From Candidatus Eiseniibacteriota bacterium (lineage in GTDB: Bacteria; Eisenbacteria; RBG-16-71-46; SZUA-252), in NCBI GenBank assembly GCA_031370645.1, contig JANMQV010000009.1, forward strand, positions 2,200 through 66,199: DNA of 64,000 nucleotides. Direction: 5' to 3'. Below the pieces are notes generated by a model. That model had not been told where the DNA came from. It worked only from the letters and a program-made list of their open reading frames with translations, and made no database searches. A program made the position numbers and the translations under genes. The number at the start of each line of letters is the position of its first letter. Position 1 is the stretch's first letter. Of the stretch, positions 3,306 to 56,117 are shown piece by piece.

Positions 3306-3308
3306 TCC

Positions 3309-16469: not shown

Positions 16470-16705
16470 TGTTTCCAGATTCCTCTCTGCAGCACTTCTT
16501 GAAGCACCACGCTGTTTCGGAGCATCAAAGGATGCCCGGTGGGCGACTCCGGCGCCTCGGGGGGAGAGCCACACACGGAGAGAGTATACCGCGCCACCGA
16601 GCGAAACCGTGCTTCATTACTGCAGATGGGCGCTGTAAACCATTGTAGGGTGGATTGTTGCAGCAAGTGGCGCGGCGCCTGTTCGGGGAGCGATGGGGCT
16701 CTCAG

Positions 16706-25295: not shown

Positions 25296-25459
25296 GTCTG
25301 GTTTCGTTCCTCGACACTTGGAAGGGGTGACGCGTCTCGCGAGCACGCGCAAGCGGCCCCGGAATTTACAGTTACCCCGGGCGCCGGGAAACACCTTATT
25401 CTATCGAAAATCTCGCTGCGCATGCTTCGGCATTTTCGACGACACAAGGAGACCCGACG

Positions 25460-28022: not shown

Positions 28023-28269
28023 GGCTGCAGAGTACCAACCGGCGCTCGTGCCTGTCACCCCGCGCCTCCTTGGGGCGCTTGGATGTCTCGCCGGCGCGTG
28101 AGAGCGGCAACTTTCCCGTGGACTTTCCATCGGTCGGAATCTAGCCTCATCGGCTCATGAAGGATTCGCGCGAGTTCCTTCCGCGTTGCGCTCCGTCACC
28201 GATCCGACAGACTTCCATGGCCTCTCCCACAATCCATCTCGCCTTCGCGGCGCCGATCCCGGAGCAGCC

Positions 28270-39659: not shown

Positions 39660-40083
39660 GTCGTTCGCTCCGGGCTCGGCCGCACGAGAGTTAGGCGTAG
39701 GGAGTTGGATCCCGATGACCATCTCGCGCGTTGCGTGTTTGGGGTCGATCAGAACCGAGTACCCCGTTTTGGGCGAACTCGTTCCCGAATCCACCCGGAA
39801 TTTAGCACGATTCGGGCCAAGTCGCGCTCCCGTATGGAATCGAGCACTTGGCGCCGAATCATTCCCGATTCATCGACAGAACGCGTGTCGCGGCTTGCAC
39901 TCCGCGAGGGCGAAATCGCGAAGCGCGGTGAAAACCGAGCCGGTCGTTCCGCATCCAATGGTTCTACCCCTTCCGGCGGCAGGAAAAGGTGTGCCGTCTG
40001 GCCGGGGGACTAACGTCCCGGCAGGAAACGTGTTAGGCCGATCGATGCGCTCCCTGCAAACGCCGGGAGAAGCGGAGTGGCGT

Positions 40084-40099
40084 TGGTGCGAAATTTGCG
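40084..40099 (+). promoter_or_regulatory. Candidate sigma54 promoter TGGTGCG-N4-TTGCG, about 55 nt upstream of the Fn3/CTD gene and exosortase
   Basis: Correct GG-N10-GC spacing, with 2 mismatches in the -24 box. It lies in a 495-bp divergent intergenic region. Confidence 0.3.
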
Positions 40100-40154
40100 T
40101 CATTCTTCGACGATCCTACCCTGTATGGGTTTAGCGTCCGATGCGGAGGCCTTG

Positions 40155-41198
40155 ATGAGAGTCCGATTCATGCCCGACGTGGTTCGCGCCCTGGCGTGCG
40201 CGGGTATCGTCTCAACCATGACGATTGCCCCGGCGGCGTTCTTCCTGCCGGCGACGCCTGCCTTCGCGCAGACCAGTGCCGCGAACAGCATGACACTACT
40301 TTGGACGGCGTCGGGAGATGACGGAGACCAGGGGCAGGTGAGCGGTTATGAAGCGCGCTTTCGCACCACCCCGCCTGCCGCGGGCGACACCCTCACCTGG
40401 TGGAATGGCGTGCCCTCCGGGCAACGAATCACCCTCGGCCCGCCTCGCGCGTCGGCTGGCGCCGATGATTCGACGAAAGTGACCGGATTGTCTCAGAACA
40501 CTACGTATTACTTCGTGATTCGGGCCTTCGACGAACAGCCCAATTACTCCGCGTACTCGAACGTCGCTACCGGAACTACCGCCTCATGCAACGCTCCCAG
40601 CGCGGCGCCAACCGGATTCGGAGCGGTTGCCGACACGGGACAGGTGACCGTCTCGTGGGGCGCCACGTCCGACCCGCTCGCGCTCTCCCTCCACTTGTAC
40701 CGAGCTCAGGGTTCGACGGGCGCGTTCAACCAGATTCAGAATCTCTCGCCCGGCACGACCTCGTTCCTCGACACGTCCGTCTTGGCCGGCACGACCTATC
40801 GATATCGCGCGGCCTACATGGGCACGCTCTGCGAAGGCCCGACGACCGGCGTCGCGACCGTGACGCTGCCGGGGACGCCGCCGCCACCGCCGCCCGCGGC
40901 CACGGCGGGCTCTTCGACCATTCACGCCTATCCGAACCCCGCGAGCAGCGCGACCGGATCGATTCGGATCGTCGTCGATGTGGACGCCACCGTGGCGACA
41001 CCGGCCTACCTTCGTCTCTTCGACCTGAACGGACACTGGGTCGCCACGCTGGCCGATGGGAACTACCCGCCCGGTAAGACCGAGGTAGCCTGGAACCGGA
41101 TCGGGCGCGACGGGCGAACCGTGGGACCCGGTTACTATGAAATCCTCGGGACCATAGGCATCACGCGGGTACGCGACCGCATCGTCCTCCTTCCGTAG
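40155..41198 (+). CDS. Secreted Fn3-like repeat protein with T9SS-type C-terminal sorting domain
   Basis: Signal peptide ending AFAQ. First repeat LLWTASGDDGDQGQVSGYEARFRT...TLTWWNG; second Fn3-like domain (LYRAQGS...TTYRYRAAY). C-terminus HAYPNPASS...LRLFDLNGHWVATL...GYYEILG...RIVLLP. GGAGG RBS. Confidence 0.65.
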   Translation: MRVRFMPDVVRALACAGIVSTMTIAPAAFFLPATPAFAQTSAANSMTLLWTASGDDGDQGQVSGYEARFRTTPPAAGDTLTWWNGVPSGQRITLGPPRASAGADDSTKVTGLSQNTTYYFVIRAFDEQPNYSAYSNVATGTTASCNAPSAAPTGFGAVADTGQVTVSWGATSDPLALSLHLYRAQGSTGAFNQIQNLSPGTTSFLDTSVLAGTTYRYRAAYMGTLCEGPTTGVATVTLPGTPPPPPPAATAGSSTIHAYPNPASSATGSIRIVVDVDATVATPAYLRLFDLNGHWVATLADGNYPPGKTEVAWNRIGRDGRTVGPGYYEILGTIGITRVRDRIVLLP

Positions 41199-42733
41199 TG
41201 AATCCCGCCCCTTCGCGCGGTTGGACCTCCGCGCTCGTCGCGTTCGCCGCGACGTTTGTCTTCGCGCTCCTCGTCTACGGGAGCACCATCGCGTCGCTCG
41301 TGAACATCTGGAGAATCTCGGACACCTTCGCGCATGGATTCCTCGTGCTGCCGGTCTGCGTCCTTCTTGCGTGGCGCTCGCGCGACCGGCTGGTAACGCT
41401 CCAGCCGCGACCCTACCCCCTCGCCCTGATCGGACTCCTTCCACTCGGCTTCGGGTGGATCATGGGCCGCGCCGCGAGCACGCTCTCCGTCGAACAGTTC
41501 TGTTTCGTGGCGATGATTCCGATCCTCGTGATTGCGCACTTCGGCCCGGCCGTCGCTCGCCGCCTCGCGTTTCCGCTCGCGTTTCTCTTCTTCGCCGTGC
41601 CGTTCGGCGATGTCTTCCAGCCGCGGCTCATGGAGATCACCGCCGGGTTCGCGGAGCGGACGCTTCGATGGAGCGGCGTGGAAGTTTCCCGGGAGGGGCT
41701 CTTCCTCGCCACGACGAATTCACGCTGGCGGGTCGTCGAGTCGTGCAGCGGGCTGCGATTCACGGTCGCGGGAGTCGTTCTGGCGACTCTCTTCGCCCAC
41801 CTCTCGTACCGTTCGAATCTCAAGCGGGCCATCTTCGTCGCCTCGGCCGTGCCCGTTTCGATTCTCGCGAACGGGATCCGCGCATACGTCCTCATCATGC
41901 TCGGACACCTGACCCACATGCGCCGTGGCGTGGGATTCGATCACTACATGTACGGATGGCTCGTCTTCACGCTCGTGATGGCCGCGTTCTTCATGATCGG
42001 CTCCGCATTTCGAGATCCTGAACGGCCGGCAACTCCCGCGGGTACGGGAGAAGGGGACGGTCCGCCGAGTGCGCCGCTCCCCCTCGGCCGTCGCGTCTCT
42101 GTCGCGGCTCTCGCGGCCATCTTCCTTGCCGCGTGGCCGGTGCTCGATGCGATCGGTTCGTCCCGCGGACTCGATCGGACTCCCGTCGTTCTCGCCGCCC
42201 CGGCCCCGCAGCGTGGCTGGGTGCTCGAGGCCGTGCAGGACTCGCTTTGGAAGCCCCACTTTCTCGGCGCCACTTCCGAGCTGAATGAACGCTATGCCGG
42301 AGCCGGCGGCACCGTTCAATGCTTTGTCGCGTATTACACGAACCAGTCGCAGGGGCGGGAACTGCTGCACACGGGGAACCGGATCATCGTGATGGGAGAT
42401 CCGACGTGGCTCGTCGTCGGGGAGGGGAGCCGCTCGTTGCCCGGCAGCTCGCCGCCCGCGTCGATCCGTGAGACCTCGGTTCGCGGTCCCGACGGTCCGA
42501 TGGTCGTCTGGAACTGGTACTGGCTTCCCGACGAGTACACTTCCGACCCGTTCCGGGCAAAGTGGCTTCAAGCGAAGAGCCGCATGCTCGGCCGGGGAGA
42601 CCGTGCCGCCGTGATCGTGCTCGCCGCGACCGCGCCCGATCCGCGCGACGCCGAACGGTTGCTGGCGCAATTCAGCGGCGACATGCTCCCTTCGATCCGA
42701 CTCGCCCTTCGAAGCGCGCAACATTCCCGCTAG
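41198..42733 (+). CDS. xrtA: Exosortase A fused to EpsI-family domain (XrtA-EpsI)
   Basis: Eight TM helices with exosortase catalytic motifs (ESCSGLRF Cys, ANGIRAY Arg, FAHG). The C-terminal roughly 200 aa are EpsI-like (soluble, after GSAFRD). GTG start overlapping the upstream TAG (TAGTG). Confidence 0.85.
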   Translation: MNPAPSRGWTSALVAFAATFVFALLVYGSTIASLVNIWRISDTFAHGFLVLPVCVLLAWRSRDRLVTLQPRPYPLALIGLLPLGFGWIMGRAASTLSVEQFCFVAMIPILVIAHFGPAVARRLAFPLAFLFFAVPFGDVFQPRLMEITAGFAERTLRWSGVEVSREGLFLATTNSRWRVVESCSGLRFTVAGVVLATLFAHLSYRSNLKRAIFVASAVPVSILANGIRAYVLIMLGHLTHMRRGVGFDHYMYGWLVFTLVMAAFFMIGSAFRDPERPATPAGTGEGDGPPSAPLPLGRRVSVAALAAIFLAAWPVLDAIGSSRGLDRTPVVLAAPAPQRGWVLEAVQDSLWKPHFLGATSELNERYAGAGGTVQCFVAYYTNQSQGRELLHTGNRIIVMGDPTWLVVGEGSRSLPGSSPPASIRETSVRGPDGPMVVWNWYWLPDEYTSDPFRAKWLQAKSRMLGRGDRAAVIVLAATAPDPRDAERLLAQFSGDMLPSIRLALRSAQHSR

Positions 42734-43145
42734 TTCCTCCCGCTTCACCTCCTCACCCCCAAACGATTCTCGTTCGATCGCGTGCAGCATGAGCGACCGC
42801 CGCGTGCGGATCGCGCCGTGCATCGTGCGCGTTCGGACACGCCTCGCGCGCTAGCTGCTTACCGACGACCGTGTTTGCAGCGTGCAGGGTGCACCGCGCG
42901 TACTCCGCGCCATGGCACATTTCGTGCAGACACTGGCGCGCGGTGGGATGGGGGTCCTGCCAAACATCAATCGAGTCCCATGAACGCATGCGACCCGCCC
43001 TCTCGGGTGGGGAGCAACACCGTGGGCAATCGGACCCAGGCGAACGCTCGCGTTCGGCTGGGTACAGAACTGCATCTCGAGGAGGATCTCCATGCGCCGT
43101 TGCCTACCTGTTCCTCACCACCCCCTTCGCGGCCCTCGAATCGCG

Positions 43146-43979
43146 ATGCGGGGAGTCATGCGCCGTTCTCTCCTGATCGGAGCGGCGATTCTCACCATGT
43201 TCGCGGCCGGAGTCGCGAAAGCACAGACCTCGGCCGACTCGTCGGTAGTTCTGCAGTGGACCGCGCCGGGAGATGACGGCACGATCGGCCGCGCCACATC
43301 GTATGACCTTCGGTATCGCACGACCGCGATCTCGGCCACGGATACTCTGACGTGGTGGAACGGCGCGACTCCGGTAAGCGGCGAGCCCGTCCCGAGCACC
43401 TCCGGAGCGACCGATTCGATGCGAGTACGCGGTCTCACGCCCTTGACGACCTACTTCTTCATCGTGCGCGCGGCCGATGAGGTTCCGAATTGGTCGGGAT
43501 ACTCGAACGTGGCGAGCAAGACGACGTCCGGCGATGCGACGCCGCCGGCCGCCATTACCACGCTGGCGGTGACCGCTACGACCGGCTCCACCATGGCACT
43601 TCGGTGGAACGCTCCGGGTAACGACGGGAGCACGGGCACGGCCGCCAGCTACGATATCCGCTATTCGACGAGTCCCATCACCTCGGCCAATTGGACAACC
43701 GCAACGCAGGCGACCGGGGAACCGGCTCCCGCCGTCGCGGGGACGCAGCAGGTCTACACACTCCCCGGACTCTCCGGAAGTCAGACCTATTACGTGGCGA
43801 TCAAGGCGACGGACGGCAGCGGTAACGTCGGAGCGCTGTCGAATGTCGTGAGCGGCACCACGGCCGACACGGTCGCGCCGGCCGCGGTTCGCGATCTCTC
43901 GATGCGCGATCTGCCGGCGGGCAATCAAGGGCCGCCGGTCGCGACGCTTCGCGGCGGCAACGAGCGTCATGATTCCTAA
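43146..43979 (+). CDS. Secreted protein with two Fn3-like repeats (paralog of flanking genes; no C-terminal sorting domain)
   Basis: Signal peptide (MRGVMRRSLLIGAAILTMFAAGVAKAQ). Repeats VLQWTAPGDDGTIGRATSYDLRYRT...TLTWWNG and ALRWNAPGNDGSTGTAASYDIRYST. Confidence 0.55.
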   Translation: MRGVMRRSLLIGAAILTMFAAGVAKAQTSADSSVVLQWTAPGDDGTIGRATSYDLRYRTTAISATDTLTWWNGATPVSGEPVPSTSGATDSMRVRGLTPLTTYFFIVRAADEVPNWSGYSNVASKTTSGDATPPAAITTLAVTATTGSTMALRWNAPGNDGSTGTAASYDIRYSTSPITSANWTTATQATGEPAPAVAGTQQVYTLPGLSGSQTYYVAIKATDGSGNVGALSNVVSGTTADTVAPAAVRDLSMRDLPAGNQGPPVATLRGGNERHDS

Positions 43980-44934
43980 ACGTTCTCCTGGAGGTTGCTT
44001 CGGGGTTGCGAGGGCGGCGGCATTCGCCGCCCTCCTTCTCCCGGGATCGGCCGCGGCCGATTCAATCACGCTCTCGTGGACCGCGCCGGGCGACGACGGC
44101 AACACGGGCCGGGCGACCTCCTATGAGCTTCGCTACTCGGATCAGGCGATTGCGGGGCAGGACACGGTCTCGTGGTGGAACTCCGCCTCCGTGGCCGGCG
44201 CGCTTCCTTCGCCTCAGTCGGCGGGGGCTCGCGAGTCGTTCACGTTGCCGGGGCTGACGACCGGACTCACGTATTACTTCGTCCTCCGCACGTCGGATGA
44301 AGTGCCGAACGTCTCCGGATTCTCGAACGCGCGCATGCGCCAGGTCGGAGCGGTCGCGCTCGCGACGCCGACCGGCTTCACCGCGCAGGCGGCGACGGGC
44401 GGAGTCCTGCTGTCGTGGCAAGAGCCGGCGTCGGGCGCGGGGGAGGGGTACCATCTCTATCGTCGCGAAGGCGCGAGCGGCGCGGACACGCTGCTTCGGA
44501 CCTCACCGCTCGGCACGACGCGATGGACCGACCCGTCCGCCAAGGCGGGCACGGACTATGAATATCGGATCGCAACCTATCTCGGCGCCGTGGAAGGCAC
44601 GCCCGCCGTCGCGACCATCAACGTCCCGGCCGTCGCCATCGCCGAAGGCGTGACCGTGATCGAGGGCTATCCTAATCCCGCTCACGGCAGCGTGACGTTT
44701 CGATTCCGCGCCGAGACGAGGGATGGATCACCAGGACACGCGCGAATCGTCGTCTTCGACATGGGCGGCCACCGAATCGCTCAACTCCTCGATGGAGAGG
44801 TACCGTCCGGCGAGCAATCGATCCAGTGGCTCTGCCGCTCCGACCAGGGAAGCCCGGTGTCCCCGGGCCTCTACAACGCCATCCTCGACGGACCCGAGGG
44901 GCGTTCCGTGATGCGCGTGGCTGTCGTTCCCTGA
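43969..44934 (+). CDS. Secreted Fn3-like repeat protein with T9SS-type C-terminal sorting domain
   Basis: Signal peptide (AFAALLLPGSAAA). ITLSWTAPGDDGNTGRATSYELRYS...TVSWWN, and a second Fn3-like domain (HLYRREG...DYEYRIATY). C-terminus GYPNPAHGSVTF...IVVFDMGGHRIAQL...GLYNAIL...RVAVVP. Confidence 0.65.
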   Translation: MIPKRSPGGCFGVARAAAFAALLLPGSAAADSITLSWTAPGDDGNTGRATSYELRYSDQAIAGQDTVSWWNSASVAGALPSPQSAGARESFTLPGLTTGLTYYFVLRTSDEVPNVSGFSNARMRQVGAVALATPTGFTAQAATGGVLLSWQEPASGAGEGYHLYRREGASGADTLLRTSPLGTTRWTDPSAKAGTDYEYRIATYLGAVEGTPAVATINVPAVAIAEGVTVIEGYPNPAHGSVTFRFRAETRDGSPGHARIVVFDMGGHRIAQLLDGEVPSGEQSIQWLCRSDQGSPVSPGLYNAILDGPEGRSVMRVAVVP

Positions 44935-45043: not shown

Positions 45044-45976
45044 GTGAAGGGGACGGAATCGAACTCGAAACGCTCCGCGGAGCCTCTCTTCGCGATGAGC
45101 GTCGACGTCGAGGAGCACTTCCAAGTTCAGGCGTTCGCGAAACTCGTCCCGCGAGAGTCGTGGCCGCTTCACCCGTCCCGTGTCGAGCAGAACACCCGCC
45201 TCTTGCTCGACCTCTTCGACGAATCCGGGACCAAGGCCACGTTCTTCACGCTCGGCTGCGTGGCGCGGGAACACCCGAGCCTCGTTCGCGAAATCGTGGT
45301 TCGCGGTCACGAGATGGCTTCGCACGGCATGGATCATCGAATGTTGACCGAACTCACCCCCGACGAATTCCGAATTCAAGCACGCGATTCGCGCGCCCTC
45401 CTCGAAGATCTCACGGGGAAGCGGGTCCTCGGATTTCGAGCGCCCTCCTATAGCATCGGACGCTCGACGCTCTGGGCCATCGATTTGCTCGCGGAGACGG
45501 GGTACGAATATGATTCGAGCGTCTATCCGATCCGCCGGCGGCGGTACGGATATCCGGAGGGCCCGGTGGCGCCCGCGATGATTCGTGGGCCGGGCGGCGC
45601 GTCGCTCGCGGAATTTCCATTACCGACACTCGCGGTCGGTCCGTTGCGGATTCCCGTACTCGCCGGCGCATTCCTGCGCCTCCTTCCACTTCATCTCTCG
45701 CGTCTCGCGCTCGAGCTTCATCGCTCCGGTGCCCGCGCGCTCATCGTGAACGTTCACCCTTGGGAACTCGATCCCACGCAACCGACCCTCGGTCCGTCAC
45801 GCCGCGCGACCTGGACGCACTACGCGCGACTCGGCCGCGTGGAGGGAATTCTCCGCGCGCTACTTTCGCGCGCGACATTTCGGACCGCGGCGACTCGACT
45901 GGGGCAACTCGGACTCTTGCCTGGCTCGAGGGGCTTGAACGAGATTCCGAGTGCCGACGTCAAATCGGGGGACTAG
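45044..45976 (+). CDS. Polysaccharide deacetylase family protein, PEP-CTERM locus subfamily (TIGR03006-like)
   Basis: MSVDVEEHFQVQAF N-terminus typical of this family, with a NodB-like core (FFTLGCVAREHP, HGMDH). The start may be the internal Met at 45095. Confidence 0.75.
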   Translation: MKGTESNSKRSAEPLFAMSVDVEEHFQVQAFAKLVPRESWPLHPSRVEQNTRLLLDLFDESGTKATFFTLGCVAREHPSLVREIVVRGHEMASHGMDHRMLTELTPDEFRIQARDSRALLEDLTGKRVLGFRAPSYSIGRSTLWAIDLLAETGYEYDSSVYPIRRRRYGYPEGPVAPAMIRGPGGASLAEFPLPTLAVGPLRIPVLAGAFLRLLPLHLSRLALELHRSGARALIVNVHPWELDPTQPTLGPSRRATWTHYARLGRVEGILRALLSRATFRTAATRLGQLGLLPGSRGLNEIPSADVKSGD

Positions 45977-47110: not shown

Positions 47111-48202
47111 ATGGCCAAGCCTTCGATCCTTCCTCTGCTAATTCTCACCACGCTACTCGTCCCCACGTTTGCATCCGCGCAGGCGGCGGCCTCTGACGTT
47201 CCAGTTGCGCCGCAGGCGCCCCGCGAACTTCTCACGATTCTAGCCGAGCCGGCCCAGACACGCCTCCGCCTCGACTCGAAGAGCGGCGAGATTCACGGCC
47301 TGGCCCCGCTCGACGTCGCCGCGACCTTTGAGGGGCCGTTCCGCGTCACCCTCGAAGGACCACGCGTGGCGCGCACTCGTGGATCGATCGTCATTCCGGG
47401 TCACGGCGGAAGGGTATCTCTGCTCTCCGAGCCGCGTCAGCCTAGCTTGGAGCTTCTGGTGCGGTCGCTCAACTTCCCGGGCGTCGCCAATATCACGACT
47501 GGCCGGACGGGGCGCGGAATCGTCCTCGGCGTGGCGGCCATCGGCGGCCTGTTCGCTACGACTCGCGCTCACATGATGTATCGCGATCGACTCGGGGAGT
47601 TCGGCGACTATGCGGCCGACCGTGCCCGCGACGAGCGCCTCTCTCGGAATTCCTGGGCGCGCTACAGCGCCGCGACATGGGGGGTGAGCGCGGTCGACTA
47701 CTGGCTCCGCCCGCGCCTCGCGATCGAAGAGGTCGCGAACCAACGCCTCGTCCTTTCCGCCCCGGCCGTCACGCGAACCTCCATCGTCTGGCGGTCGCTT
47801 CTGATCCCGGGCGCCGGGCAGGAATTCGCGAACCACAGCGGCCGCGGCGCGCTTTGGCTTGGAGCCACGTTGGCCGCCGGCGCGGGGCTCGTGGTGGCCG
47901 ACGGCATGGTGGAGCGTGATCAGACTCGGGTCGATTGGGCGGAAATGCAGATCGACAGCGCGGGCCCGACGGAGCGTGTCGAGCGCGTGCGTGACTGGGA
48001 ACGCCGGAAGCGCGATCTCCAATCCTCCGAAGACCTGCGACGCGGATTTCGCTACGGCCTGATCGGCTCCTATCTCGCGAACGTCGTCGATGCGATCTTC
48101 GTCCCCATGGGACGTCCCGCTCCGGTAGGGAAGGCGCGGCTCTCCACCTCGGCGATCATCCGACCGGATGGTCCCGAGCTCGTAACGACTCTCCACTTCT
48201 AG
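47111..48202 (+). CDS. Secreted/membrane hypothetical protein with DUF5683-like motif
   Basis: Signal peptide (LLILTTLLVPTFASAQA). The central SLLIPGAGQEF...ALWLGATLAAGAGLVV resembles the S-x-(L/I)PG-x-GQ motif plus TM of DUF5683. Confidence 0.5.
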   Translation: MAKPSILPLLILTTLLVPTFASAQAAASDVPVAPQAPRELLTILAEPAQTRLRLDSKSGEIHGLAPLDVAATFEGPFRVTLEGPRVARTRGSIVIPGHGGRVSLLSEPRQPSLELLVRSLNFPGVANITTGRTGRGIVLGVAAIGGLFATTRAHMMYRDRLGEFGDYAADRARDERLSRNSWARYSAATWGVSAVDYWLRPRLAIEEVANQRLVLSAPAVTRTSIVWRSLLIPGAGQEFANHSGRGALWLGATLAAGAGLVVADGMVERDQTRVDWAEMQIDSAGPTERVERVRDWERRKRDLQSSEDLRRGFRYGLIGSYLANVVDAIFVPMGRPAPVGKARLSTSAIIRPDGPELVTTLHF

Positions 48203-48543
48203 GCAGCCCTCCTTACGGCGGCGCGCACGCGCCTGCATCGCGCACCCTCCCGGCGCGTTCGAGCCAATCTCTCTCCTTCTTCGAACCCTCATCGCGAGAC
48301 GCCTCACTGTGCAATATGCGGCATCCGTACCGATCCGTGCGTGGCTGGTTCGACGCGCCGCCATGCGCGCGATGCACCCCCTTGCGCCGCAACGAAGTCG
48401 AGGCTCGCGGAGCGCCGCAGCGCCGCTTTTCCCGTGGCACGCTAACTGCTTTAACGGGAAGTGGGTCTGCTGTGTCGCACCGCGCCAGGGGGTCGAAGGC
48501 CGGCGACCAGGCTATGGGGGATTCTTCAGACGGGAGATTTCTT

Positions 48544-50127
48544 ATGACTTGGTCCACTCCGGGTCGAACGACGCCGAAGCACGCGATGCTCCGACTCGCT
48601 CCTCTCGCTGTTCTGATGGCCACACTCCTGTACCCGGGGGTACGTGGCACCGCATCCGCCGCGCTCGTCGGCGGGTCGTCGGCGGACTTCCTTCAGTTCG
48701 AGGTCGGCGGTCGATCGGCGGGCATGGGCGGCGCCCAAACGGGCGTCGCGACGGGCGTGACGGCTCAGTTCTGGAACCCCGCACTCTTGGCGACGCTTCA
48801 GAATCCGGAGGTCGGTGCGCTGCACGCCTCGTGGCTACAGGACCTGAGCTACGAGTGGGTCGGCTATGCGCGCCCCCTCGGATCGAGCCTCGGCGTTGGA
48901 TCGGTCTCGGCGGCGTACTTCCATATGCCGAGCATCCAGGGCGTCGATGAGTTCAACAACCCGACCGGCACCTTCCGCGTCTACGACCTCGCGATCACGG
49001 CCGGACTCTCGCGGCCCGTCGCGCGCGGCGTGAACGTCGGCGCCAATCTCAAGATGATCCGGCAGAATCTCGCGACCGTTTCAGCGACGGGCGTGGCCGC
49101 CGATTTCGGCGTCGCGGCGGCCGTGCTCGGCGGCACGGTCGGCCTCGCGGTCCAGAATGTGGGACCGAACATGGCGTACAGCGATGCCGCCTCCTACCCG
49201 CTACCGCAGCAGATCCGCTTCGGCGTGAGCCGCGGCTTTCTTCAAGAGCGCCTTCTTGTCGCGGCCGACTACAACTCGCCCCGCAACTATTTTAACGACG
49301 TCCGACTCGGCACCGAGTTCAAGGCGCACCGGAACATCTCCATTCGTCTCGGTTATCGCTATGAACTCGGAAGCTCGAACGACCCGGTCACCGGGCTCTC
49401 GTACGGACTCGGCCTTCACTTCGGCCCGGCATCGCTCGATTACGCGATGACTCCGAGCAACGACTTCGACAACGTGCAGCGCTTCGCGTTCGGATACAGT
49501 TTCGGCGGCGGCGCCGAGGAGACGCCGGCGAAGCCGCAGGCGCCGAAGAAGCAGAAGCCGCTGCCGCCGGCGCCGCCGAAGAACCCGACCACGGTCGCCG
49601 CCGCGCCGAACGCGAAGAAGAATCCGAAGCCGGTCGCACCCGTGAGCATCCTTTCGGACACGAAGACGGTTGCCTCCGCGCCCGTGGCCCCGGTCGTGTC
49701 GCCTGATGTCCGCTCCGCGACGGAGACTGCCGCGCCGAAGTCGAACAACACTCCGACCGAGTCGGCGCCGAGCCCCGCTCCCGTCGTGATCGCGACGGCT
49801 CCGGAGAAGGCGCCCGAAACAATCGTGGAGAAGGCCGCTGAGAAGGCTCCGGAGAAGAGTGCCCCGAAGGAATCGAAGCCCGTGAAGGTCGTCCTCGAGC
49901 ACCTCGTGTTGCTCCTCGGCTATAGCTCGATGGAAAGTGCTCAGTCCGAGATGAAGGCGCTCCAGCTACTCGGATTCAGGACGAAGGACGCGTCGATAGT
50001 GGCCGACCCGAAGGGGGGCTACGCCATTCGCCTCGCGCAGATGAAGTCGAAGGACAGCGCGGAGGGAATGGTTTCGGATCTCGCTCGGATGTCGTTTCGG
50101 GCCGTGGTACAGACCGTCCAGCGCTAG
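48544..50127 (+). CDS. PorV/PorQ-family-like outer-membrane beta-barrel protein with Pro/Lys/Ala-rich linker and C-terminal SPOR domain
   Basis: Signal peptide (MLRLAPLAVLMATLL). The N-terminal GSSADFLQFEVGGRSAGMGGAQTGVATGVTAQFWNPALLA matches the hallmark start of PorV-like barrels, followed by alternating beta-strand patterns. A low-complexity linker (PAKPQAPKKQKPLPPAPPKNP...EKAPEKSAPKESKP) follows. The C-terminal roughly 75 aa are SPOR-like (VVLEHLVLLLGYSSMESAQSEMKALQLLGF...GYAIRLAQMKSKDSAEGMVSDL). ATG 7 nt after GGGAGA. Confidence 0.55.
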   Translation: MTWSTPGRTTPKHAMLRLAPLAVLMATLLYPGVRGTASAALVGGSSADFLQFEVGGRSAGMGGAQTGVATGVTAQFWNPALLATLQNPEVGALHASWLQDLSYEWVGYARPLGSSLGVGSVSAAYFHMPSIQGVDEFNNPTGTFRVYDLAITAGLSRPVARGVNVGANLKMIRQNLATVSATGVAADFGVAAAVLGGTVGLAVQNVGPNMAYSDAASYPLPQQIRFGVSRGFLQERLLVAADYNSPRNYFNDVRLGTEFKAHRNISIRLGYRYELGSSNDPVTGLSYGLGLHFGPASLDYAMTPSNDFDNVQRFAFGYSFGGGAEETPAKPQAPKKQKPLPPAPPKNPTTVAAAPNAKKNPKPVAPVSILSDTKTVASAPVAPVVSPDVRSATETAAPKSNNTPTESAPSPAPVVIATAPEKAPETIVEKAAEKAPEKSAPKESKPVKVVLEHLVLLLGYSSMESAQSEMKALQLLGFRTKDASIVADPKGGYAIRLAQMKSKDSAEGMVSDLARMSFRAVVQTVQR

Positions 50128-50218: not shown

Positions 50219-50404
50219 TAGGGATACGTGGGGGCATAACGGGGCACCGTGGTATACGTGCGCCCCTTCCGCCTTTGCTCCCGCCACGGTGGTTCATGGT
50301 GCCGGTGCCCATGGATGCCGCGCCCAGAGGGCGCCGCTCGTAGCATTCCTCGCGAGTGGATCATTCCGCCCGGCGCAGCTTCGAGCCAACGACGGTGGCC
50401 ATTG

Positions 50405-51178
50405 ATGATTCTCCCATCAGGATATATCGGCCCCAAGGCAACCGCGGACACAAGCGTACGCCGCGACGCTCCCATCAAGCGAGCCGTCGACGTCGCCCTC
50501 TCCATCATCGGCCTCATCGTCATGCTGCCCGTCTTTGCCGTCATCGCCATCGCCATCAAACTCGACAGCCACGGGCCGATCATCTACGCCCAAGAGCGGA
50601 TCGGGCTGAATCGCCGCCGCGGCGCCTCGCGTCACGGGGGTTCGGGGACTGGCAACGGCAATGGCCACGAGAAACATGAAAACGGCAACGGCGCGACCAT
50701 TCTGACGCTGACTCCGGAACGCCGTCGTCGCGACACGTACGGCCGTCCATTCAAGATCTACAAGTTCCGAAGCATGGTGACCGACGCCGAGAAGAACACC
50801 GGCCCCGTCTGGGCGGCGAAGAGCGATTCGCGCATCACGCGGGTCGGCAACATTCTCCGAAAGACGAGGCTCGACGAGTTCCCGCAGCTCTGGAACGTCC
50901 TCCGTGGCGACATGAGCATCGTGGGCCCGCGCCCCGAGCGCCCGACGTTCGTGGTCGAGCTGACGCAGTCGCTTCCGGACTATCCGCAGCGCTGCAACAC
51001 GCTCCCGGGCATCACCGGACTCGCGCAGGTGAAGTGGCAGTACGACACTTCCATCGAGACCGTGAATCGCAAATTGGAATACGATCTCTACTATGTGCGC
51101 CATCGCCGCCTGCTACTCGATCTGAAGATCATGGCCGCCACGGTGAAGGTGATGGCCCGGGGAGAGGGCGCGCACTAG
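50405..51178 (+). CDS. Undecaprenyl-phosphate sugar phosphotransferase (bacterial sugar transferase, WbaP/WcaJ C-terminal-domain type)
   Basis: Single TM ([22 protein letters not shown]), then [30 protein letters not shown] and GITGLAQV motifs. A Gly/Asn/His-rich insertion ([29 protein letters not shown]) sits between the TM and the catalytic domain. Confidence 0.8.
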
Positions 51179-51278: not shown

Positions 51279-53192
51279 GTGCGGCCCGAGACGCGGATGC
51301 GGCATGCATGGAGCGATCGCCCCCTTCGCGATTCCACTTTGAGACAACCCACACGGAGTACGCAGCGAGCCACGGTCGAGCGGCTGTGGCGACGCGCCGA
51401 AGAGATCCGCTCGCTCTGCGGCCTTCCTCCCTTGCCGCCCGAGGTCCCGGGTTCGCCCGACGGGCCGGACGCGGCGTCGCTCGAATTCCTCGTCGATTAT
51501 CTCCTTCACGACCTCGAAGGAAATTTTCGTCGCGAGCTCGCGACGCGCGTGCAGCTCGAAGGCCTCGCCGAACTCATGGCCACGACCGCCGGGGGTTCGG
51601 AGCCCGGGCGGGGCTACGGCCTGCTCGTGAACTATCTCGCCCGCGCCCTCGACGAGCCGCGTCTTTGGATCGGTGTCGTCGACGGGCAGCCGCCGACCTT
51701 CACGCTCTTCCGGGCGGGCGATCCCACGCTTCACGACGTTCAGCCGGATCGGGTGCATCTCCAGTGGCTTCATCCCGACTGGCTCCAGTGGCTCGCCCTC
51801 GGGGAGGGGGAGCCGGCGCTCTGGTCGGACCCCACCGGTTCGCGGAAAGGCGGCCCATGGCACGCCGTGCCGATTCGAGGCGAGATCCCGCACGATCGTT
51901 TCACCGGCGAGGTGACGGCCTGTCCCGGCTCGCTCGCCTCGGGCGACGCCTGCGCGCTCTCGCGCGGCCCTCTCGAAGAAATGGCGGGCGGGCACCGAGC
52001 CTGCGGCCGCTGCCAATTCCGCCGCATCGCAGGTCTCGTCGGGATCGAGGGGACTCTTCCGACGGAGCGGCGCGCGAGCCTTGAAGCCGTCGCCCCATCG
52101 CTCGGGCCGATCCTCGTCACCCTCGCGCTCCGTGAGGCGCTCGATCTCGAGGCGCGCTTCCGGGACGGCGTGATCGAGGAACTTCCGCTCGGAATCGTGG
52201 CCATTGACGAGCGGGGCCGCGCCCTCGCCTGGAATCGCGCGGCGGAGTCGATCGTCGGTCTCTCGAAGGAGCAGGTGCGTTCCACGCCGCTCGCAAGACT
52301 GCTGCCGGACCGGAGCTGGCATCAATCGCTCGTCCGGAGCCTCGAACTCGGCGTGGAGACCGATCGGACCGAGCACGACGTCGTCCGATCGGACGGGACC
52401 TCGCTCCCCGTGGAAGTCCGCACGTCCCCGCTCCGGGACGGCGAAGGGAGGATTCGGGGCGCCGTCGGAACGATGGTCGATCTCTCGAGCCTGAAGGGAA
52501 TGGAGGAGCGGATCCGCCAACTCGACCGGCTGGCCGCGGTCGGCCGATTCGTCTCGAGCGTCGCCCACGAGCTTCGAAACCCCCTGACGGGGATCGCCAC
52601 GGGCGTGCAGTACCTGAGCCGCGGGTTTCCCGAGGGGGACGAGCGCCACGAGAGCGTCACCTTCATTCTCCGCGAAGTCGTCCGGCTCAATACCATCATC
52701 CAAGACCTCTTCACGGCGGCGCGCCCTCGCGATCTCGTCCTGGCCCGTACCCCGGTCCTGGAAATCATCGACCGCGTCGTCCGGACCCTCTCCGGGGGGG
52801 CCGAAGCCTCGGGGGTCACGATCGCGCTGGAAGGTGCCGATAGGTGGCCCGATGCCATGATTGACGCCGACCAGGTCCAGCAGGTGTTCCTGAACCTGGT
52901 CGAGAACGCGATTCACGCCACCGCTCCAGGCGGAACGATTTCCATCCGCTCCGTCCGGCGATCCGCCCCGCCGGAGATCGTGGTGACCGTGGAGGACACG
53001 GGCGCGGGCATGCCGCCGGAGCAGCAGGCGCGCATCTTCGAGCCCTTCTATACGACGAAGGCGAAAGGCACCGGCCTTGGGCTCTTCGTGGCGCACGGTA
53101 TCGTGCAGCGGCATGGCGGGGCCATCGAGGTCGAAAGCGAGCCGGGCCGCGGAACTCGATTCCGCGTCGCCCTCCCCGGCACCCAGGAATAA
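51279..53192 (+). CDS. Sensor histidine kinase, PrsK-like (cytoplasmic; GAF/PAS-HisKA-HATPase)
   Basis: HisKA H-box (VSSVAHELRNPLTGI), N-box (FLNLVENAIHAT), G1/G2 boxes (VEDTGAGM, GTGLGLFVAHGIV), and a PAS-like segment (LPLGIVAIDERGRALAWNRAAESIVGL). No TM helices. The start is GTG 51279 or ATG 51297. Confidence 0.8.
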   Translation: MRPETRMRHAWSDRPLRDSTLRQPTRSTQRATVERLWRRAEEIRSLCGLPPLPPEVPGSPDGPDAASLEFLVDYLLHDLEGNFRRELATRVQLEGLAELMATTAGGSEPGRGYGLLVNYLARALDEPRLWIGVVDGQPPTFTLFRAGDPTLHDVQPDRVHLQWLHPDWLQWLALGEGEPALWSDPTGSRKGGPWHAVPIRGEIPHDRFTGEVTACPGSLASGDACALSRGPLEEMAGGHRACGRCQFRRIAGLVGIEGTLPTERRASLEAVAPSLGPILVTLALREALDLEARFRDGVIEELPLGIVAIDERGRALAWNRAAESIVGLSKEQVRSTPLARLLPDRSWHQSLVRSLELGVETDRTEHDVVRSDGTSLPVEVRTSPLRDGEGRIRGAVGTMVDLSSLKGMEERIRQLDRLAAVGRFVSSVAHELRNPLTGIATGVQYLSRGFPEGDERHESVTFILREVVRLNTIIQDLFTAARPRDLVLARTPVLEIIDRVVRTLSGGAEASGVTIALEGADRWPDAMIDADQVQQVFLNLVENAIHATAPGGTISIRSVRRSAPPEIVVTVEDTGAGMPPEQQARIFEPFYTTKAKGTGLGLFVAHGIVQRHGGAIEVESEPGRGTRFRVALPGTQE

Positions 53193-53204
53193 GAGGCGAC
53201 GCTC

Positions 53205-54633
<1,429 letters not shown>

Positions 54634-54647
<14 letters not shown>

Positions 54648-55146
54648 ACCTTTCGTCGCGGCGCTCCTCGCCGCGGCGTGTGCGGCCGGAGGCTGCGCCT
54701 ACTCGGTGTCCGGGGTCCTCCCGAGCCACCTGAAGACCCTCGCCGTCCCGGTCTTCGGCAACAACACGGTCGAGTTCCGGCTGGCCGATGACGTCACCCA
54801 GGCCATCACCGACGCGTTCCTCGCCGACCGCCGGCTTCGCATCGTGCGCGAGCGTGATGCCGACGCCGTCCTCCGCGGCACCGTCGTGGCCTACCGGAAT
54901 CAGGTCTACGGCTACACCGCGAAGGAGCGCGCCACCCAGTACGAAATTGTCCTCGTCGTCCAGGTGACGTTTCGCGACCAGGTGAAGAACCGCGTCCTCT
55001 GGAAGGAAGATCAGCTGGCGGTTCGGACGACGTACAATGTCGTCCCGCTGGGAGGGGAAATCGCGAAGACGGAGACCGATGGACGGCGCGAGGTGATTCA
55101 GAAATTGGCGGACCAGATCGTGAGCCGAACGGTGCAGGGATGGTGA
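54634..55146 (+). CDS. lptE: LPS-assembly lipoprotein LptE-like
   Basis: Lipobox (LLAAACAAGGC) followed by AYSVSGVLPSHLKTLAVPVFGNNT, typical of LptE. About 170 aa. Conserved linkage with holA and leuS. Confidence 0.6.
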
Positions 55147-56117
55147 CGGCGCGCTCCCGCGGCGGAGCCGGCGCGACCGGAACGCCGCAGGCGCTCGCGC
55201 GGGCCTGGCGCGACGGCGCGGAACCCGCTCCCTTCCTAGTCGCCACCGGGCCGAGCGACTATTGGCGCGTGCACCTCGTCGAGGCGTATCGCGAAAGCGC
55301 TGCGGCGGCGGGGGCGGAGTTCCAACGGCTGGAAGGGGACGACCTCGACGCCGAGACACTCGCGGGCGCCCTCGAGTCGCTCTCCCTCTTCGCGACGTCG
55401 CAGAGGCTTTGGATCCGCGAAGGGGCCAAACTCGAGAAGGCGTGCGAGGAGCGGCTTCTCCGGTTGGCCGGCGCTCCGATCGCCGGCGTCACCATCCTCC
55501 TCACGACCGCGCGCGATCCGTCCGAGTTGAAGTTCCTCGGCTCGCTCGCCGCGAAGGCGGCCGTCGTGTCATGCGAGGAGCGTTCGGGCGACTCCATGAA
55601 GGAGGCCCAGCGCCTCGCAACCGAAGCCGGACTGAAGCTCCCTCCGGGGCTCCTGGAAGCGATCACAGCCCGCGCCGGGTCGCTACAGTCGCTCCGTCAG
55701 GAATTGGCGAAATTGGGGGTTCTGGCGGATGGGACGGGGAAGATCGAACTCTCGGCGCTGAACGCCGTCGCGGCAGGTCGGAGCGCCGCCTCGGTGGAGC
55801 GATGGGCCGTCGCCGCTCTTCAGCGAGACGCGGCCCGTGCGCGTGTGGAGGCCGCGGCCCTGAGCGCCGAGGGATCGGCGACCGGATCCGCGCTCTGGGC
55901 GGTCGCCTCCATGGCTCTCGCGGCCCTCGAGCCACAGGCGTACGGATTTCGCCGTGGACCGTCCGGCCCGGCCCTTCGCCCCGCCGCGGCGCGGGCGGCG
56001 CTCGATGCGGTCTATCGGGCCGATCGCGCCATGAAACGGGGCGAGATCCGAGACGAGGAAGTGCTCGACGTGCTGGAACGAAGCCTGCAGGGAGGAACGA
56101 GTGTCCGAGACGCGTGA
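55140..56117 (+). CDS. holA: DNA polymerase III subunit delta (HolA)-like
   Basis: PFLVATGPSDYW...LESLSLFATSQRLWIREGAKL pattern and its length. Position between lptE and leuS as in many bacteria. Confidence 0.5.
   Translation: MVTARSRGGAGATGTPQALARAWRDGAEPAPFLVATGPSDYWRVHLVEAYRESAAAAGAEFQRLEGDDLDAETLAGALESLSLFATSQRLWIREGAKLEKACEERLLRLAGAPIAGVTILLTTARDPSELKFLGSLAAKAAVVSCEERSGDSMKEAQRLATEAGLKLPPGLLEAITARAGSLQSLRQELAKLGVLADGTGKIELSALNAVAAGRSAASVERWAVAALQRDAARARVEAAALSAEGSATGSALWAVASMALAALEPQAYGFRRGPSGPALRPAAARAALDAVYRADRAMKRGEIRDEEVLDVLERSLQGGTSVRDA

What the first reader, a model, noticed from the sequence alone, without database searches (positions are those of the whole stretch)
48544..50127. 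PorV-like outer-membrane barrel fused to a Pro/Lys-rich linker and a SPOR peptidoglycan-binding domain
- The N-terminal 330 aa begin with the PorV/PorQ-type signature (G.SA.FL.F.VGaRsAGMGGA.....D..A.FWNPA.LA) followed by amphipathic beta-strands.
- Residues about 320-430 are a low-complexity spacer of PAKPQAPKK / EKAPEK repeats.
- The last roughly 75 aa look like a SPOR domain.

A PorV-type shuttle or outer-membrane barrel tethered to peptidoglycan, sitting 3 kb from the T9SS-CTD cargo genes and 1.5 kb from the PEP-CTERM gene, has not been described to my knowledge. It may be the outer-membrane anchor for the sorted cargo.
Basis: partly seen in the sequence, partly recalled or inferred. Interest (0 to 1): 0.6.

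Follow-up and report, generated by a model that had tools for sequence, protein, structure and literature searches.

The report
Cell-wall-tethered PorV-like outer-membrane barrel
One gene in an uncultured soil bacterium (Candidatus Eisenbacteria) encodes an outer-membrane barrel of the PorV/PorQ family joined by a floppy proline-rich tether to a cell-wall-binding SPOR domain, and it appears to be switched on together with nearby surface proteins that carry a type IX-style sorting tail, so it is probably their cell-wall-anchored docking site.

Summary

The same single-ORF architecture occurs in all 27 related loci, almost all labelled Candidatus Eisenbacteria. It is not an ortholog of PorV, PorQ or PorV2, because it scores below all three equivalog cut-offs.

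It sits at the edge of a roughly 47-kb XrtA/PEP-CTERM exopolysaccharide locus. A conserved sigma-54 promoter lies about 95 nt upstream. The only other such promoter in the window precedes an operon of FN3 proteins, one of which has a T9SS type-A-like C-terminal domain. A sigma-54 response regulator is adjacent.

Close relatives carry LysM, OmpA, SPOR or TPR tails, or no tail.

Best reading (inferred, about 0.45): a peptidoglycan-tethered docking barrel for the CTD-bearing surface proteins, resembling PorQ-PorZ or PorP-PorE. I could not test whether these genomes have T9SS core genes. I found no paper describing this architecture. I rate it a new variant of a known kind, of moderate interest.

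The parts
48435..48450 (+). Sigma-54-type promoter (-24/-12 element TGGCAC-N5-CTGCT), about 95 nt upstream of the ATG at 48544
   Evidence: One of only 2 matches to TGGCAYN6TGCW in the 64-kb window, against 0.09 expected. An equivalent element lies upstream of the ortholog in 24 of 25 Eisenbacteria loci (L016 lacks it).
48544..50127 (+). Whole gene: a 527-aa PorV/PorQ-family barrel, linker and SPOR protein (stop codon included)
   Evidence: Single ORF. Forty-two orthologs align end to end. Barrel and SPOR lie in one frame in 27 loci.
48544..48660 (+). Predicted Sec signal peptide (residues 1-39): a basic N-region, the hydrophobic stretch LAPLAVLMATLL, and an ASA|A cleavage-like site
   Evidence: Read directly from the sequence. 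The hydrophobic stretch and the position are conserved in orthologs. No signal-peptide predictor was available.
48679..49503 (+). PorV/PorQ-family outer-membrane beta-barrel (residues 46-320). It begins with the conserved FLxFEVGGRSAGMGGA...AQFWNPA signature and ends with a last strand in GYSF (beta-signal-like).
   Evidence: NF033709 scores 158 bits against a cut-off of 90. AF2 barrel. PorV is the best PDB fold and sequence match.
49507..49881 (+). Disordered Pro/Ala/Lys/Glu-rich periplasmic tether (residues 322-446)
   Evidence: Composition, and variable length of 69-155 aa in orthologs. pLDDT below 50.
49894..50121 (+). SPOR (peptidoglycan glycan-strand-binding) domain, residues 451-526
42913..42928 (+). 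Second sigma-54-type promoter, about 165 nt upstream of the FN3 gene pair
   Evidence: It is conserved at the equivalent place in 12 of 15 orthologous loci that have enough upstream sequence.
43092..44934 (+). Two overlapping FN3-domain secreted-protein genes (43092-43979 and 43969-44934). The second ends in a T9SS type-A-like C-terminal domain (about 44641-44931).
   Evidence: Pfam fn3. CTD: sub-threshold FlgD_ig and Por_Secre_tail matches; profile hit to the PorU CTD at E=1.7e-7; TIGR04183 in 10 of 10.
40077..41198 (+). Third FN3 protein with the same type of C-terminal domain (about 40908-41195)
   Evidence: TIGR04183 scores 16.3 bits, below the cut-off of 23.
45044..45976 (+). XrtA-system polysaccharide deacetylase (VimE-like), probably in the same sigma-54 operon as the FN3 pair
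   Evidence: TIGR03006 scores 289 bits against a cut-off of 276. The operon is inferred from strand and spacing.
47111..48202 (+). Conserved upstream neighbour: a signal-peptide membrane protein with a weak DUF5683 match (weak PEGA matches in orthologs)
   Evidence: DUF5683 scores 16.7 bits, below cut-off. The gene sits in the same position in L001, L003, L004 and L005.
50249..51178 (+). Conserved downstream neighbour: a small polyprenyl-phosphate glycosylphosphotransferase (Bac_transf). The true start is probably later than 50249.
   Evidence: Pfam Bac_transf scores 218 bits. Orthologs are 236-249 aa.
51279..54647 (+). PAS histidine kinase (51279-53192) and sigma-54-dependent response regulator (53205-54647), the candidate activator of the two promoters
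   Evidence: The pair is conserved downstream of the barrel gene in Eisenbacteria and in the sister lineage.

Best explanation
The gene encodes a Sec-exported outer-membrane protein with three working parts. The first is a compact 14-strand-type beta-barrel of the PorV/PorQ family. The second is a flexible Pro/Ala/Lys tether of about 125 residues that continues from the barrel's periplasmic C-terminus. The third is a terminal SPOR domain that holds on to peptidoglycan glycan strands. The barrel is therefore leashed to the cell wall.

The gene is transcribed from a sigma-54 promoter. That promoter is most likely activated by the adjacent PAS kinase and sigma-54 response regulator, together with a second sigma-54 operon that encodes FN3 surface proteins with a type-IX-style C-terminal domain and a VimE-like deacetylase.

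Most likely role: a cell-wall-anchored docking barrel that binds the C-terminal domain of those FN3 proteins at the cell surface. This would resemble how PorQ holds PorZ, how PorV holds PorU, or how PorP plus PorE hold PG1035, with the peptidoglycan-binding function built in. It would tie the surface protein and exopolysaccharide layer to the wall.

Shown: the domain architecture, its conservation, the promoter elements and the gene neighbourhood.

Inferred: membrane topology, peptidoglycan binding, activation by the neighbouring regulator, and any binding of the C-terminal domains.
For: - Architecture.
- One ORF in 27 loci.
- Sigma-54 elements: only two in the 64-kb window (0.09 expected), one before this gene and one before the FN3/CTD operon. 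Both are conserved across orthologous loci. A sigma-54 activator and a PAS kinase follow the gene in every locus examined that is long enough.
- CTDs: the FN3 proteins' C-terminal domains match T9SS type-A CTDs. The PorU CTD 6za2 hits at E=1.7e-7, the RgpB CTD at 3e-3, TIGR04183 in 10 of 10, the PorU model in 6 of 10 and the PorZ model in 4 of 10.
- Sister lineage: SPOR-tailed relatives scoring only about 245-265 bits against the ortholog profile (780 for a true ortholog; P0123, P0128) are again found two genes from an FN3 protein with the same CTD, next to the kinase, regulator and LptE.
- HMM preference: scores favour PorQ (105 bits) over PorV (55 bits), and PorQ is the static anchor type. 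PorU and PorZ are known to be held on the surface by PorV and PorQ, and PorP-PorE-PG1035 is the proposed peptidoglycan anchor (PMC7463736).
- Tails in relatives: among the closest relatives with tails, Pfam finds LysM (15), OmpA (8), SPOR (3) and TPR (about 23) out of 80. These are the same kinds of modules as PorE, which has TPR and OmpA_C-like domains (PMC12773672).
- Glycan pathway: the locus holds homologs of the T9SS linking-sugar enzymes VimA (TIGR03019), VimE (TIGR03006) and WbpS (TIGR03108) (PMC7468200). In the sister lineage the barrel gene directly follows Wbp-like sugar genes.
Against: - No T9SS translocon, sortase or motor gene is in the window, and their presence in Eisenbacteria genomes could not be checked.
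- The protein fails the PorV, PorQ and PorV2 equivalog cut-offs.
- The barrel is compact, about 275 aa against a 402-aa PorV chain. The alignment shows a stretch in PorV that is missing here. That stretch may include the long loops PorV uses to bind cargo.
- The window's own CTDs score below the curated cut-offs: 16.3 against 23 for TIGR04183, and 13-17.5 against 27 for Pfam.
- A syntenic ortholog in the sister lineage has no SPOR tail (L029), so wall tethering is not essential to the barrel's job.
- PorV-family members occur in phyla not known to have a T9SS.
- The SPOR domain is divergent. Among SPOR structures, a sequence profile recovers only CwlC.
- Co-regulation is inferred from promoter motifs only.
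Confidence: 0.45

Rival explanations
1. It is a general envelope staple. In this reading the protein is an OmpA/Pal-like structural link whose main job is to hold the outer membrane to the peptidoglycan, with no cargo-specific role. The PorV-family barrel serves only as the membrane anchor.
For: - Many close relatives carry interchangeable wall-binding tails: LysM, OmpA or SPOR.
- The gene lies beside housekeeping envelope genes (LptE, then a HolA-like gene, then LeuRS) in every lineage.
- The long flexible linker resembles those of other OM-to-peptidoglycan tethers.
Against: - The N-terminal PorV signature is nearly invariant. That argues for a conserved function of the barrel interior or plug, not a passive anchor.
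- Sigma-54 control shared with a surface-protein operon is unusual for a constitutive staple.
- A tail-less syntenic ortholog exists.
Confidence: 0.2
2. It is a FadL/LptO-like lateral-gate channel for a lipid-linked glycan or for lipid modification. The barrel would move or modify a hydrophobic or glycolipid molecule, such as a lipid-anchored polysaccharide or LPS species, made by the adjacent glycosylphosphotransferase and exopolysaccharide genes.
For: - The fold is related to FadL, TodX and CymD.
- There is constant adjacency to a polyprenyl-phosphate sugar transferase or to Wbp-like sugar genes, and to LptE.
- A barrel-only relative lies next to chain-length and deacetylase exopolysaccharide genes (L030).
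- From my own knowledge, PorV was first named LptO for an effect on LPS O-deacylation.
Against: - Pfam Toluene_X (FadL) scores only 10.7 bits against a cut-off of 29.7.
- PorV is a clearly better match than FadL in both sequence and fold.
- No lipid-handling partner was identified.
Confidence: 0.15
3. It is the organism's true PorV shuttle of a canonical T9SS, collecting cargo at a SprA-type translocon. The SPOR tail would only limit how far it can diffuse.
For: - PorV is the best solved-structure relative.
- T9SS-type CTD proteins are nearby.
- If extended, a 125-aa tether would still allow tens of nanometres of movement (inference).
Against: - It scores 55 bits against a cut-off of 250 for the PorV equivalog, and scores higher on PorQ.
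- It lacks a stretch that is present in PorV.
- There is no porU next to it and no T9SS core gene in 64 kb.
Confidence: 0.1
4. It is a division-site outer-membrane protein. Because SPOR domains bind the peptide-free glycan strands that accumulate at the septum, the tail would recruit the barrel to the division site. There it would help outer-membrane constriction, or deposit surface material at new poles.
For: - SPOR fold and family match.
- Known SPOR proteins (FtsN, DamX, DedD, RlpA) are septal (established knowledge).
Against: - No division genes are nearby.
- The SPOR domain is divergent.
- The tail is replaced by LysM, OmpA or TPR in relatives and is absent in one ortholog, which argues for generic wall or periplasm attachment and against septal targeting.
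Confidence: 0.1

Closest known systems
PorQ and PorV of the Bacteroidota type IX secretion system (NF033711, NF033710; PorV structures 6h3i and 8gl6)
   Same: Same protein superfamily (NF033709 is passed) and the same N-terminal signature. PorV is the best fold and sequence match in the PDB. Neighbouring genes encode proteins with T9SS type-A-like C-terminal domains, which is the ligand class that PorV and PorQ bind.
   Different: - It is below all equivalog cut-offs.
- The barrel is compact and lacks a stretch found in PorV.
- It carries a roughly 125-aa tether and a SPOR domain that no described PorV or PorQ has.
- It lies in an XrtA exopolysaccharide locus in a non-Bacteroidota phylum.
- No T9SS core genes have been shown.
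PorP-PorE-PG1035 complex of P. gingivalis (an outer-membrane barrel, a peptidoglycan-binding lipoprotein and a surface CTD protein)
   Same: The same logic: an outer-membrane barrel that holds a CTD protein on the surface and is connected to peptidoglycan. PorE's module types (TPR, OmpA_C-like) are the ones found fused to this protein's relatives.
   Different: - Here the wall-binding module is fused to the barrel itself and is a SPOR domain, not OmpA_C.
- The barrel belongs to the PorV/PorQ family, not PorP/SprF.
- The nearby CTDs are type-A-like, not type B.
SPOR-domain proteins (FtsN, DamX, DedD, RlpA, CwlC; PF05036)
   Different: Known SPOR proteins are inner-membrane-anchored, lipoprotein or secreted enzymes. 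I found no paper describing a SPOR domain at the end of an integral outer-membrane barrel. The sequence is also divergent.
OmpA-type two-domain outer-membrane proteins
   Same: An N-terminal beta-barrel, a Pro-rich hinge and a C-terminal periplasmic peptidoglycan-binding domain.
   Different: The barrel is a 14-strand-type FadL/PorV-like barrel, not an 8-strand one. The linker is far longer. The wall binder is SPOR, which recognises glycan strands, not OmpA_C, which recognises the peptide stem.
UPF0164 and FadL-like outer-membrane proteins (PF03687, PF03349)
   Same: It passes the Pfam UPF0164 threshold, and its fold is related to FadL and TodX.
   Different: The FadL model is not passed. There is no evidence of fatty-acid or hydrocarbon genes nearby.

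Membership tests
PorV/PorQ family (NCBIfam NF033709) | Whole-protein HMM score at or above the curated cut-off of 90 bits, across the whole profile | tested here: met
   158.1 bits, residues 46-320 on profile positions 3-326 of 326. The sister-lineage relative P0123 scores 159.7 bits.
PorV/PorQ family (NCBIfam NF033709) | FadL-like outer-membrane beta-barrel fold resembling solved PorV | tested here: met
   AF2 barrel with pLDDT 70-90. The top Foldseek hits are PorV 8gl6_F and 6h3i_F at E about 2e-10, with TM (target-normalised) 0.56-0.59. Barrel closure and strand count were not checked on coordinates.
T9SS PorV (equivalog NF033710) | Score of at least 250 bits | tested here: not met
   55.3 bits.
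T9SS PorQ (equivalog NF033711) | Score of at least 220 bits | tested here: not met
   104.8 bits.
PorV2 (equivalog NF052325) | Score of at least 325 bits | tested here: not met
   55.3 bits.
Type IX secretion system component | The genome encodes the T9SS core (SprA/Sov, PorU, PorK/L/M/N, PorZ) | not testable with these tools
   None of these is in the 64-kb window. Whole genomes such as OY969801.1 could not be scanned, and no paper links Eisenbacteria to a T9SS.
Type IX secretion system component | Association with cargo that carries a T9SS C-terminal sorting domain | tested here: inconclusive
   Neighbouring FN3 proteins end in a domain that matches TIGR04183 in 10 of 10 aligned copies (best 5.6e-6) and the PorU CTD (6za2, E=1.7e-7). 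The window's own copies score below the curated cut-offs, and FlgD-Ig models match about equally well.
SPOR domain (Pfam PF05036) | HMM score at or above the gathering score of 21 bits | tested here: met
   16.6 bits in the full-length protein, but 22.8 bits for the isolated domain. All 23 orthologous tails match, the best at 2.5e-8.
SPOR domain (Pfam PF05036) | Beta-alpha-beta-beta-alpha-beta (RNP-like) fold closest to solved SPOR domains | tested here: met
SPOR domain (Pfam PF05036) | Binds peptidoglycan glycan strands that lack stem peptides | not testable with these tools
   This needs a binding assay. The conservation of ligand-contact residues was not tested.
FadL/TodX family (Pfam PF03349) | HMM score at or above 29.7 bits | tested here: not met
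   10.7 bits. The fold is related.
XrtA/PEP-CTERM exopolysaccharide system accessory gene | Consistent co-location with exosortase XrtA | tested here: inconclusive
   XrtA is 5.8 kb upstream in the window and also present in L004. It is absent within 10 kb in L001, L003, L005, L027 and L028. The link to the FN3/CTD operon and to the kinase-regulator pair is more constant.

The most novel reading that the evidence does not exclude
The barrel-SPOR protein is the outer-membrane platform of a previously unrecognised surface-anchoring module outside Bacteroidota, regulated by sigma-54.

In this module, proteins with type-IX-style C-terminal domains are docked, and possibly glycan-attached, on a cell-wall-tethered PorQ/PorV-like barrel. 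They would use the same Vim/Wbp-like 'linking-sugar' chemistry that the neighbouring XrtA exosortase uses for PEP-CTERM proteins.

That would physically and genetically connect two sorting systems so far treated as separate. It would also supply the missing outer-membrane step for exosortase-linked surface assembly.
Probability: 0.15. Interest if true: 0.8.

Novelty: new variant of a known kind. Interest (0 to 1): 0.55.

Why it matters
PorV is thought of as a freely diffusing shuttle, and PorE is the only T9SS part known to touch the cell wall. The 2020 review read here explicitly asks whether other components do (PMC7463736). This protein, and the many relatives with LysM, OmpA, SPOR or TPR tails, show that wall- or periplasm-attached PorV-family barrels are common in uncultured phyla.

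The locus also places three things side by side: type-IX-style cargo, an exosortase, and homologs of the enzymes that make the T9SS linking sugar. That makes testable the idea, raised by Veith et al. (PMC7468200), that exosortase systems and the T9SS use related attachment chemistry.

The conserved pair of sigma-54 promoters gives a concrete regulon to test.

Tried and rejected
- Frameshift or two-gene explanation: rejected. There is one stop-free frame in the window and in 27 loci.
- The longer 603-aa ORF from 48316: rejected as the gene start. Ortholog N-termini and the promoter at 48435 lie inside it.
- True tandem peptide repeats in the linker: rejected. Only a weak 12-nt periodicity is present, so it is low complexity.
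- T9SS core genes: I scanned about 50 ORFs in the window and found none. I could not scan a whole Eisenbacteria genome.
- Other PorV-family or SPOR genes within the window and about 480 kb of related loci: none besides the orthologs.
- Literature searches for PorV with SPOR, Eisenbacteria with T9SS, and T9SS in sister phyla: nothing relevant.
- The AlphaFold-database fold library was unavailable.
- A palindrome TGCR-N3-YGCA, a possible activator site, is enriched upstream of both promoters. Strict matches are missing in many loci, including upstream of this gene in the window, so I left it as a lead.
- Organism labels of a few related contigs (Hyphomicrobiales, Acidobacteriota, Omnitrophota, Limnocylindrales, Bacteroidota, Binatia) conflict with their 50-60% identity (L009 also shares the upstream promoter element). 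I treated them as probable binning or labelling errors without testing this.
Full report
**What is there**

The ORF lister gives one long frame, 48316-50127 (+). The finding's start, ATG 48544, is the right one. It is preceded by GGGAGA, the N-termini of 41 orthologs align with it, and a conserved promoter lies inside the longer version.

The 527-aa product begins with a basic stretch, then the hydrophobic run LAPLAVLMATLL and an ASA|A site, which reads as a Sec signal peptide. This was read directly from the sequence, because no predictor was available.

**Barrel**

- NCBIfam NF033709 (PorV/PorQ family) scores 158.1 bits against a cut-off of 90, over the whole 326-position profile. Pfam UPF0164 also passes, at 34.7 against 21.4.
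- A profile of 42 orthologs finds F. johnsoniae PorV (6h3i_F, E=1.9e-12) as its only significant relative among solved structures.
- The AlphaFold2 model built on that alignment has a barrel at residues 89-321 with pLDDT about 70-90.
- Its best Foldseek matches are PorV (8gl6_F and 6h3i_F, E about 2e-10), ahead of TodX, FadL, CymD and BamG.
- The last strand ends in an invariant GYSF, which is beta-signal-like.
- The specific ortholog models are not passed: PorQ scores 104.8 against 220, PorV 55.3 against 250, and PorV2 55.3 against 325.
- The alignment to PorV shows a stretch in PorV that this protein lacks.

**Linker**

Residues 322-446 are 125 aa, of which 26 are Pro, 24 Ala and 16 Lys. The model predicts disorder there. 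In orthologs the linker is 69-155 aa long. It is low complexity, not a repeat array.

**SPOR domain**

- The full-length Pfam score is sub-threshold (16.6 against 21).
- The isolated domain scores 22.8, and all 23 orthologous tails match SPOR, the best at 2.5e-8.
- A separate model of the tail (pLDDT 85.7) has the beta-alpha-beta-beta-alpha-beta order.
- The domain is divergent: among SPOR structures, a sequence profile recovers only CwlC (E=1.6e-4).

**Distribution**

- The word-indexed protein search scored 158 proteins with E of 1e-5 or better. The 120 listed are 48-100% identical over their best local alignment, and the named ones are mostly 'PorV/PorQ family protein [Candidatus Eisenbacteria]'.
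- In species-representative genomes, 21 loci were found. Sixteen are labelled Eisenbacteria, including a complete 3.12-Mb chromosome.
- In all 27 related loci, barrel and SPOR share one stop-free frame wherever the contig allows.
- An exhaustive profile search of 1.84 billion representatives gave 17,233 family hits.
- Of the 150 best, 92 have a tail of 60 aa or more after the barrel and 57 have none.
- In 80 of the tailed proteins, Pfam finds TPR (about 23), LysM (15), OmpA (8) and SPOR (3). Ten match this family's own SPOR profile.
- The labelled relatives include Gemmatimonadota and Elusimicrobiota.
- The SPOR fusion is therefore one version of a widespread, unstudied design: a PorV-family barrel with a periplasmic wall-binding or TPR tail.

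**Surroundings**

The first roughly 47 kb of the window form an XrtA/PEP-CTERM exopolysaccharide locus. It contains:

- a chain-length determinant and a tyrosine kinase;
- a nucleotide-sugar dehydrogenase and an epimerase;
- a FemAB-family protein (TIGR03019, 385 bits against 260);
- an amidotransferase (TIGR03108, 1050 against 817);
- an exosortase-A-associated acyl-CoA ligase;
- a Wzy-like ligase;
- XrtA with EpsI (41198-42733);
- a deacetylase (TIGR03006, 289 against 276);
- a choice-of-anchor-N PEP-CTERM protein.

No T9SS core gene is present.

In Eisenbacteria the constant neighbours of the barrel gene are as follows:

- upstream, a membrane protein with a weak DUF5683 match and, in two orthologs, a weak PEGA match;
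- downstream, a small glycosylphosphotransferase, a PAS kinase, a sigma-54 response regulator, LptE, a HolA-like gene and LeuRS.

XrtA itself is present in the window and in L004. It is absent within 10 kb in L001, L003 and L005.

**Cargo-like genes**

Three FN3 proteins lie 3.6-8.5 kb upstream. Two of them (40077-41198 and 43969-44934) end in an approximately 95-aa domain with the pattern YPNP...(F/Y)D..G......W.....G..V.PG.Y.

- The window's own copies score below the Pfam and NCBIfam cut-offs.
- A 10-sequence profile hits the C-terminal domain of PorU (6za2) at E=1.7e-7, FlgD Ig domains at about 3e-4 to 6e-4, and the RgpB CTD at 3e-3.
- TIGR04183 matches 10 of 10, the PorU model 6 of 10 and the PorZ model 4 of 10.

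**Regulation**

The pattern TGGCAYN6TGCW occurs only twice in the 64-kb window, against 0.09 expected. One copy is at 48435, 94 nt before the ATG of this gene. The other is at 42913, 164 nt before the FN3 pair.

Both are conserved in place. The first is present in 24 of 25 Eisenbacteria loci. The second is present in 12 of 15 loci that have enough upstream sequence. With a sigma-54 activator encoded three genes downstream, co-regulation is the simplest reading, but it is an inference.

**Sister lineage**

SPOR-tailed relatives that score only about 245-265 bits against the ortholog profile (780 for a true ortholog; P0123, P0128) sit in a similar arrangement: Wbp-like sugar genes, the barrel gene, an epimerase, an FN3 protein with the same C-terminal domain, a PAS kinase, a sigma-54 regulator, LptE and HolA. 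In L027 a helicase gene lies between the sugar genes and the barrel. A third member (L029) has the same synteny without the kinase-regulator pair, and its barrel has no tail. A barrel-only relative lies in another exopolysaccharide locus.

**Link to known biology**

- In P. gingivalis, PorU and PorZ keep their C-terminal domains and are held on the surface by PorV and PorQ.
- PorE, with TPR and OmpA_C-like domains, is the only T9SS part known to bind peptidoglycan.
- PorP-PorE-PG1035 is proposed as the wall anchor (PMC7463736; PMC12773672 and PMC7192894).
- T9SS cargo is attached to a linking sugar made by the Wbp/Vim pathway. Veith et al. noted that VimA matches TIGR03019, that WbpS matches TIGR03108, and that a deacetylase accompanies them in exosortase loci (PMC7468200). 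All three families are present in this window.

**Conclusion**

The architecture is real, conserved and, in the literature I could search, undescribed. The most likely function is a cell-wall-tethered docking barrel for the co-regulated CTD-bearing FN3 proteins, with confidence about 0.45.

The rivals are a generic envelope staple, a FadL/LptO-like glycolipid channel, a true PorV shuttle, and a septum-targeted protein. The main gap is that the presence of a T9SS in these genomes could not be tested.

Noticed in passing
window 42913-42928 and 48435-48450 (+); equivalent sites in L001, L003, L004, L007, L014, L017, L019, L021-L025: These are the only two sigma-54-type -24/-12 promoter matches in the 64-kb window (0.09 expected). 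One precedes the FN3/CTD operon and one precedes the barrel-SPOR gene, and both are conserved in place across orthologous loci. This suggests a small sigma-54 regulon.
   Followed up: yes
window 42876-42893; about 200 nt upstream of the sigma-54 elements in L001, L004, L005, L017, L019-L021, L024-L026: The palindrome TGCR-N3-YGCA (NtrC-site-like) occurs at 1.5-5 per kb upstream of the two promoter classes, against 0.04 per kb elsewhere in 484 kb. Strict matches are missing in many loci, including upstream of 48435 in the window. These are possible activator binding sites.
   Followed up: partly
window 4246-5319, 23370-25394, 45044-45976 (also 1977-4256): The XrtA locus contains homologs of all three enzymes that build the T9SS cargo 'linking sugar' in P. 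gingivalis: VimA-like FemAB (TIGR03019), WbpS-like amidotransferase (TIGR03108) and VimE-like deacetylase (TIGR03006). A sugar 6-dehydrogenase and an epimerase are also present, in the same locus as T9SS-type CTD proteins.
   Followed up: partly
window 40077-41198 and 43969-44934; L027 12755-13930; L028 12556-13791: FN3 proteins end in a conserved domain of about 95 aa (YPNP...W...PG.Y) that matches T9SS type-A sorting domains and FlgD-Ig domains. They are found next to the barrel gene in two lineages whose barrel proteins are only distantly related.
   Followed up: yes
window 47111-48202: This is a 363-aa protein with a signal peptide, hydrophobic segments and a sub-threshold DUF5683 match (orthologs show weak PEGA matches). 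It is always the gene immediately upstream of the barrel gene in Eisenbacteria. Its function is unknown.
   Followed up: partly
P0123-P0269 (best 150 representatives); e.g. P0133 (Gemmatimonadota, TPR) and P0137 (Elusimicrobiota, 630 aa): About 60% of the closest PorV-family relatives have C-terminal extensions of 60-600 aa carrying TPR, LysM, OmpA or SPOR modules. This architecture class does not appear in the T9SS literature I searched.
   Followed up: partly
L029 4670-5608: A syntenic ortholog in the sister lineage is barrel-only (312 aa, with the next gene 99 nt downstream). The SPOR tail has therefore been gained or lost within the orthologous group.
   Followed up: partly
window 54634-58656: LptE, a 325-aa gene with no Pfam hit (HolA-like by synteny with L027-L029) and a probable LeuRS (by synteny) follow the two-component genes. 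This is the leuS-lptE-holA association known from E. coli, in a different order.
   Followed up: no
window 50249-51178: The glycosylphosphotransferase ORF is 309 aa from GTG 50249, but orthologs are 236-249 aa, and only the C-terminal catalytic part of the EpsB/WbaP models is matched. It is probably a small monotopic PglC-type enzyme with a later start.
   Followed up: no
window 28186-30165 and 13521-16574 (-): Two items were left unexamined. One is a second, divergent asparagine-synthase-like paralog (TIGR03108 scores 277 bits, below cut-off). The other is a 1017-aa protein with a glucose/sorbosone-dehydrogenase-like N-terminal region.
   Followed up: no
L009, L011, L013, L016, L024; P0043: Contigs carrying orthologs that are 50-60% identical (L009 also shares the upstream sigma-54 element) are labelled Hyphomicrobiales, Acidobacteriota, Omnitrophota, Limnocylindrales, Bacteroidota or Binatia. 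These are probably binning or labelling errors in the source MAGs.
   Followed up: no
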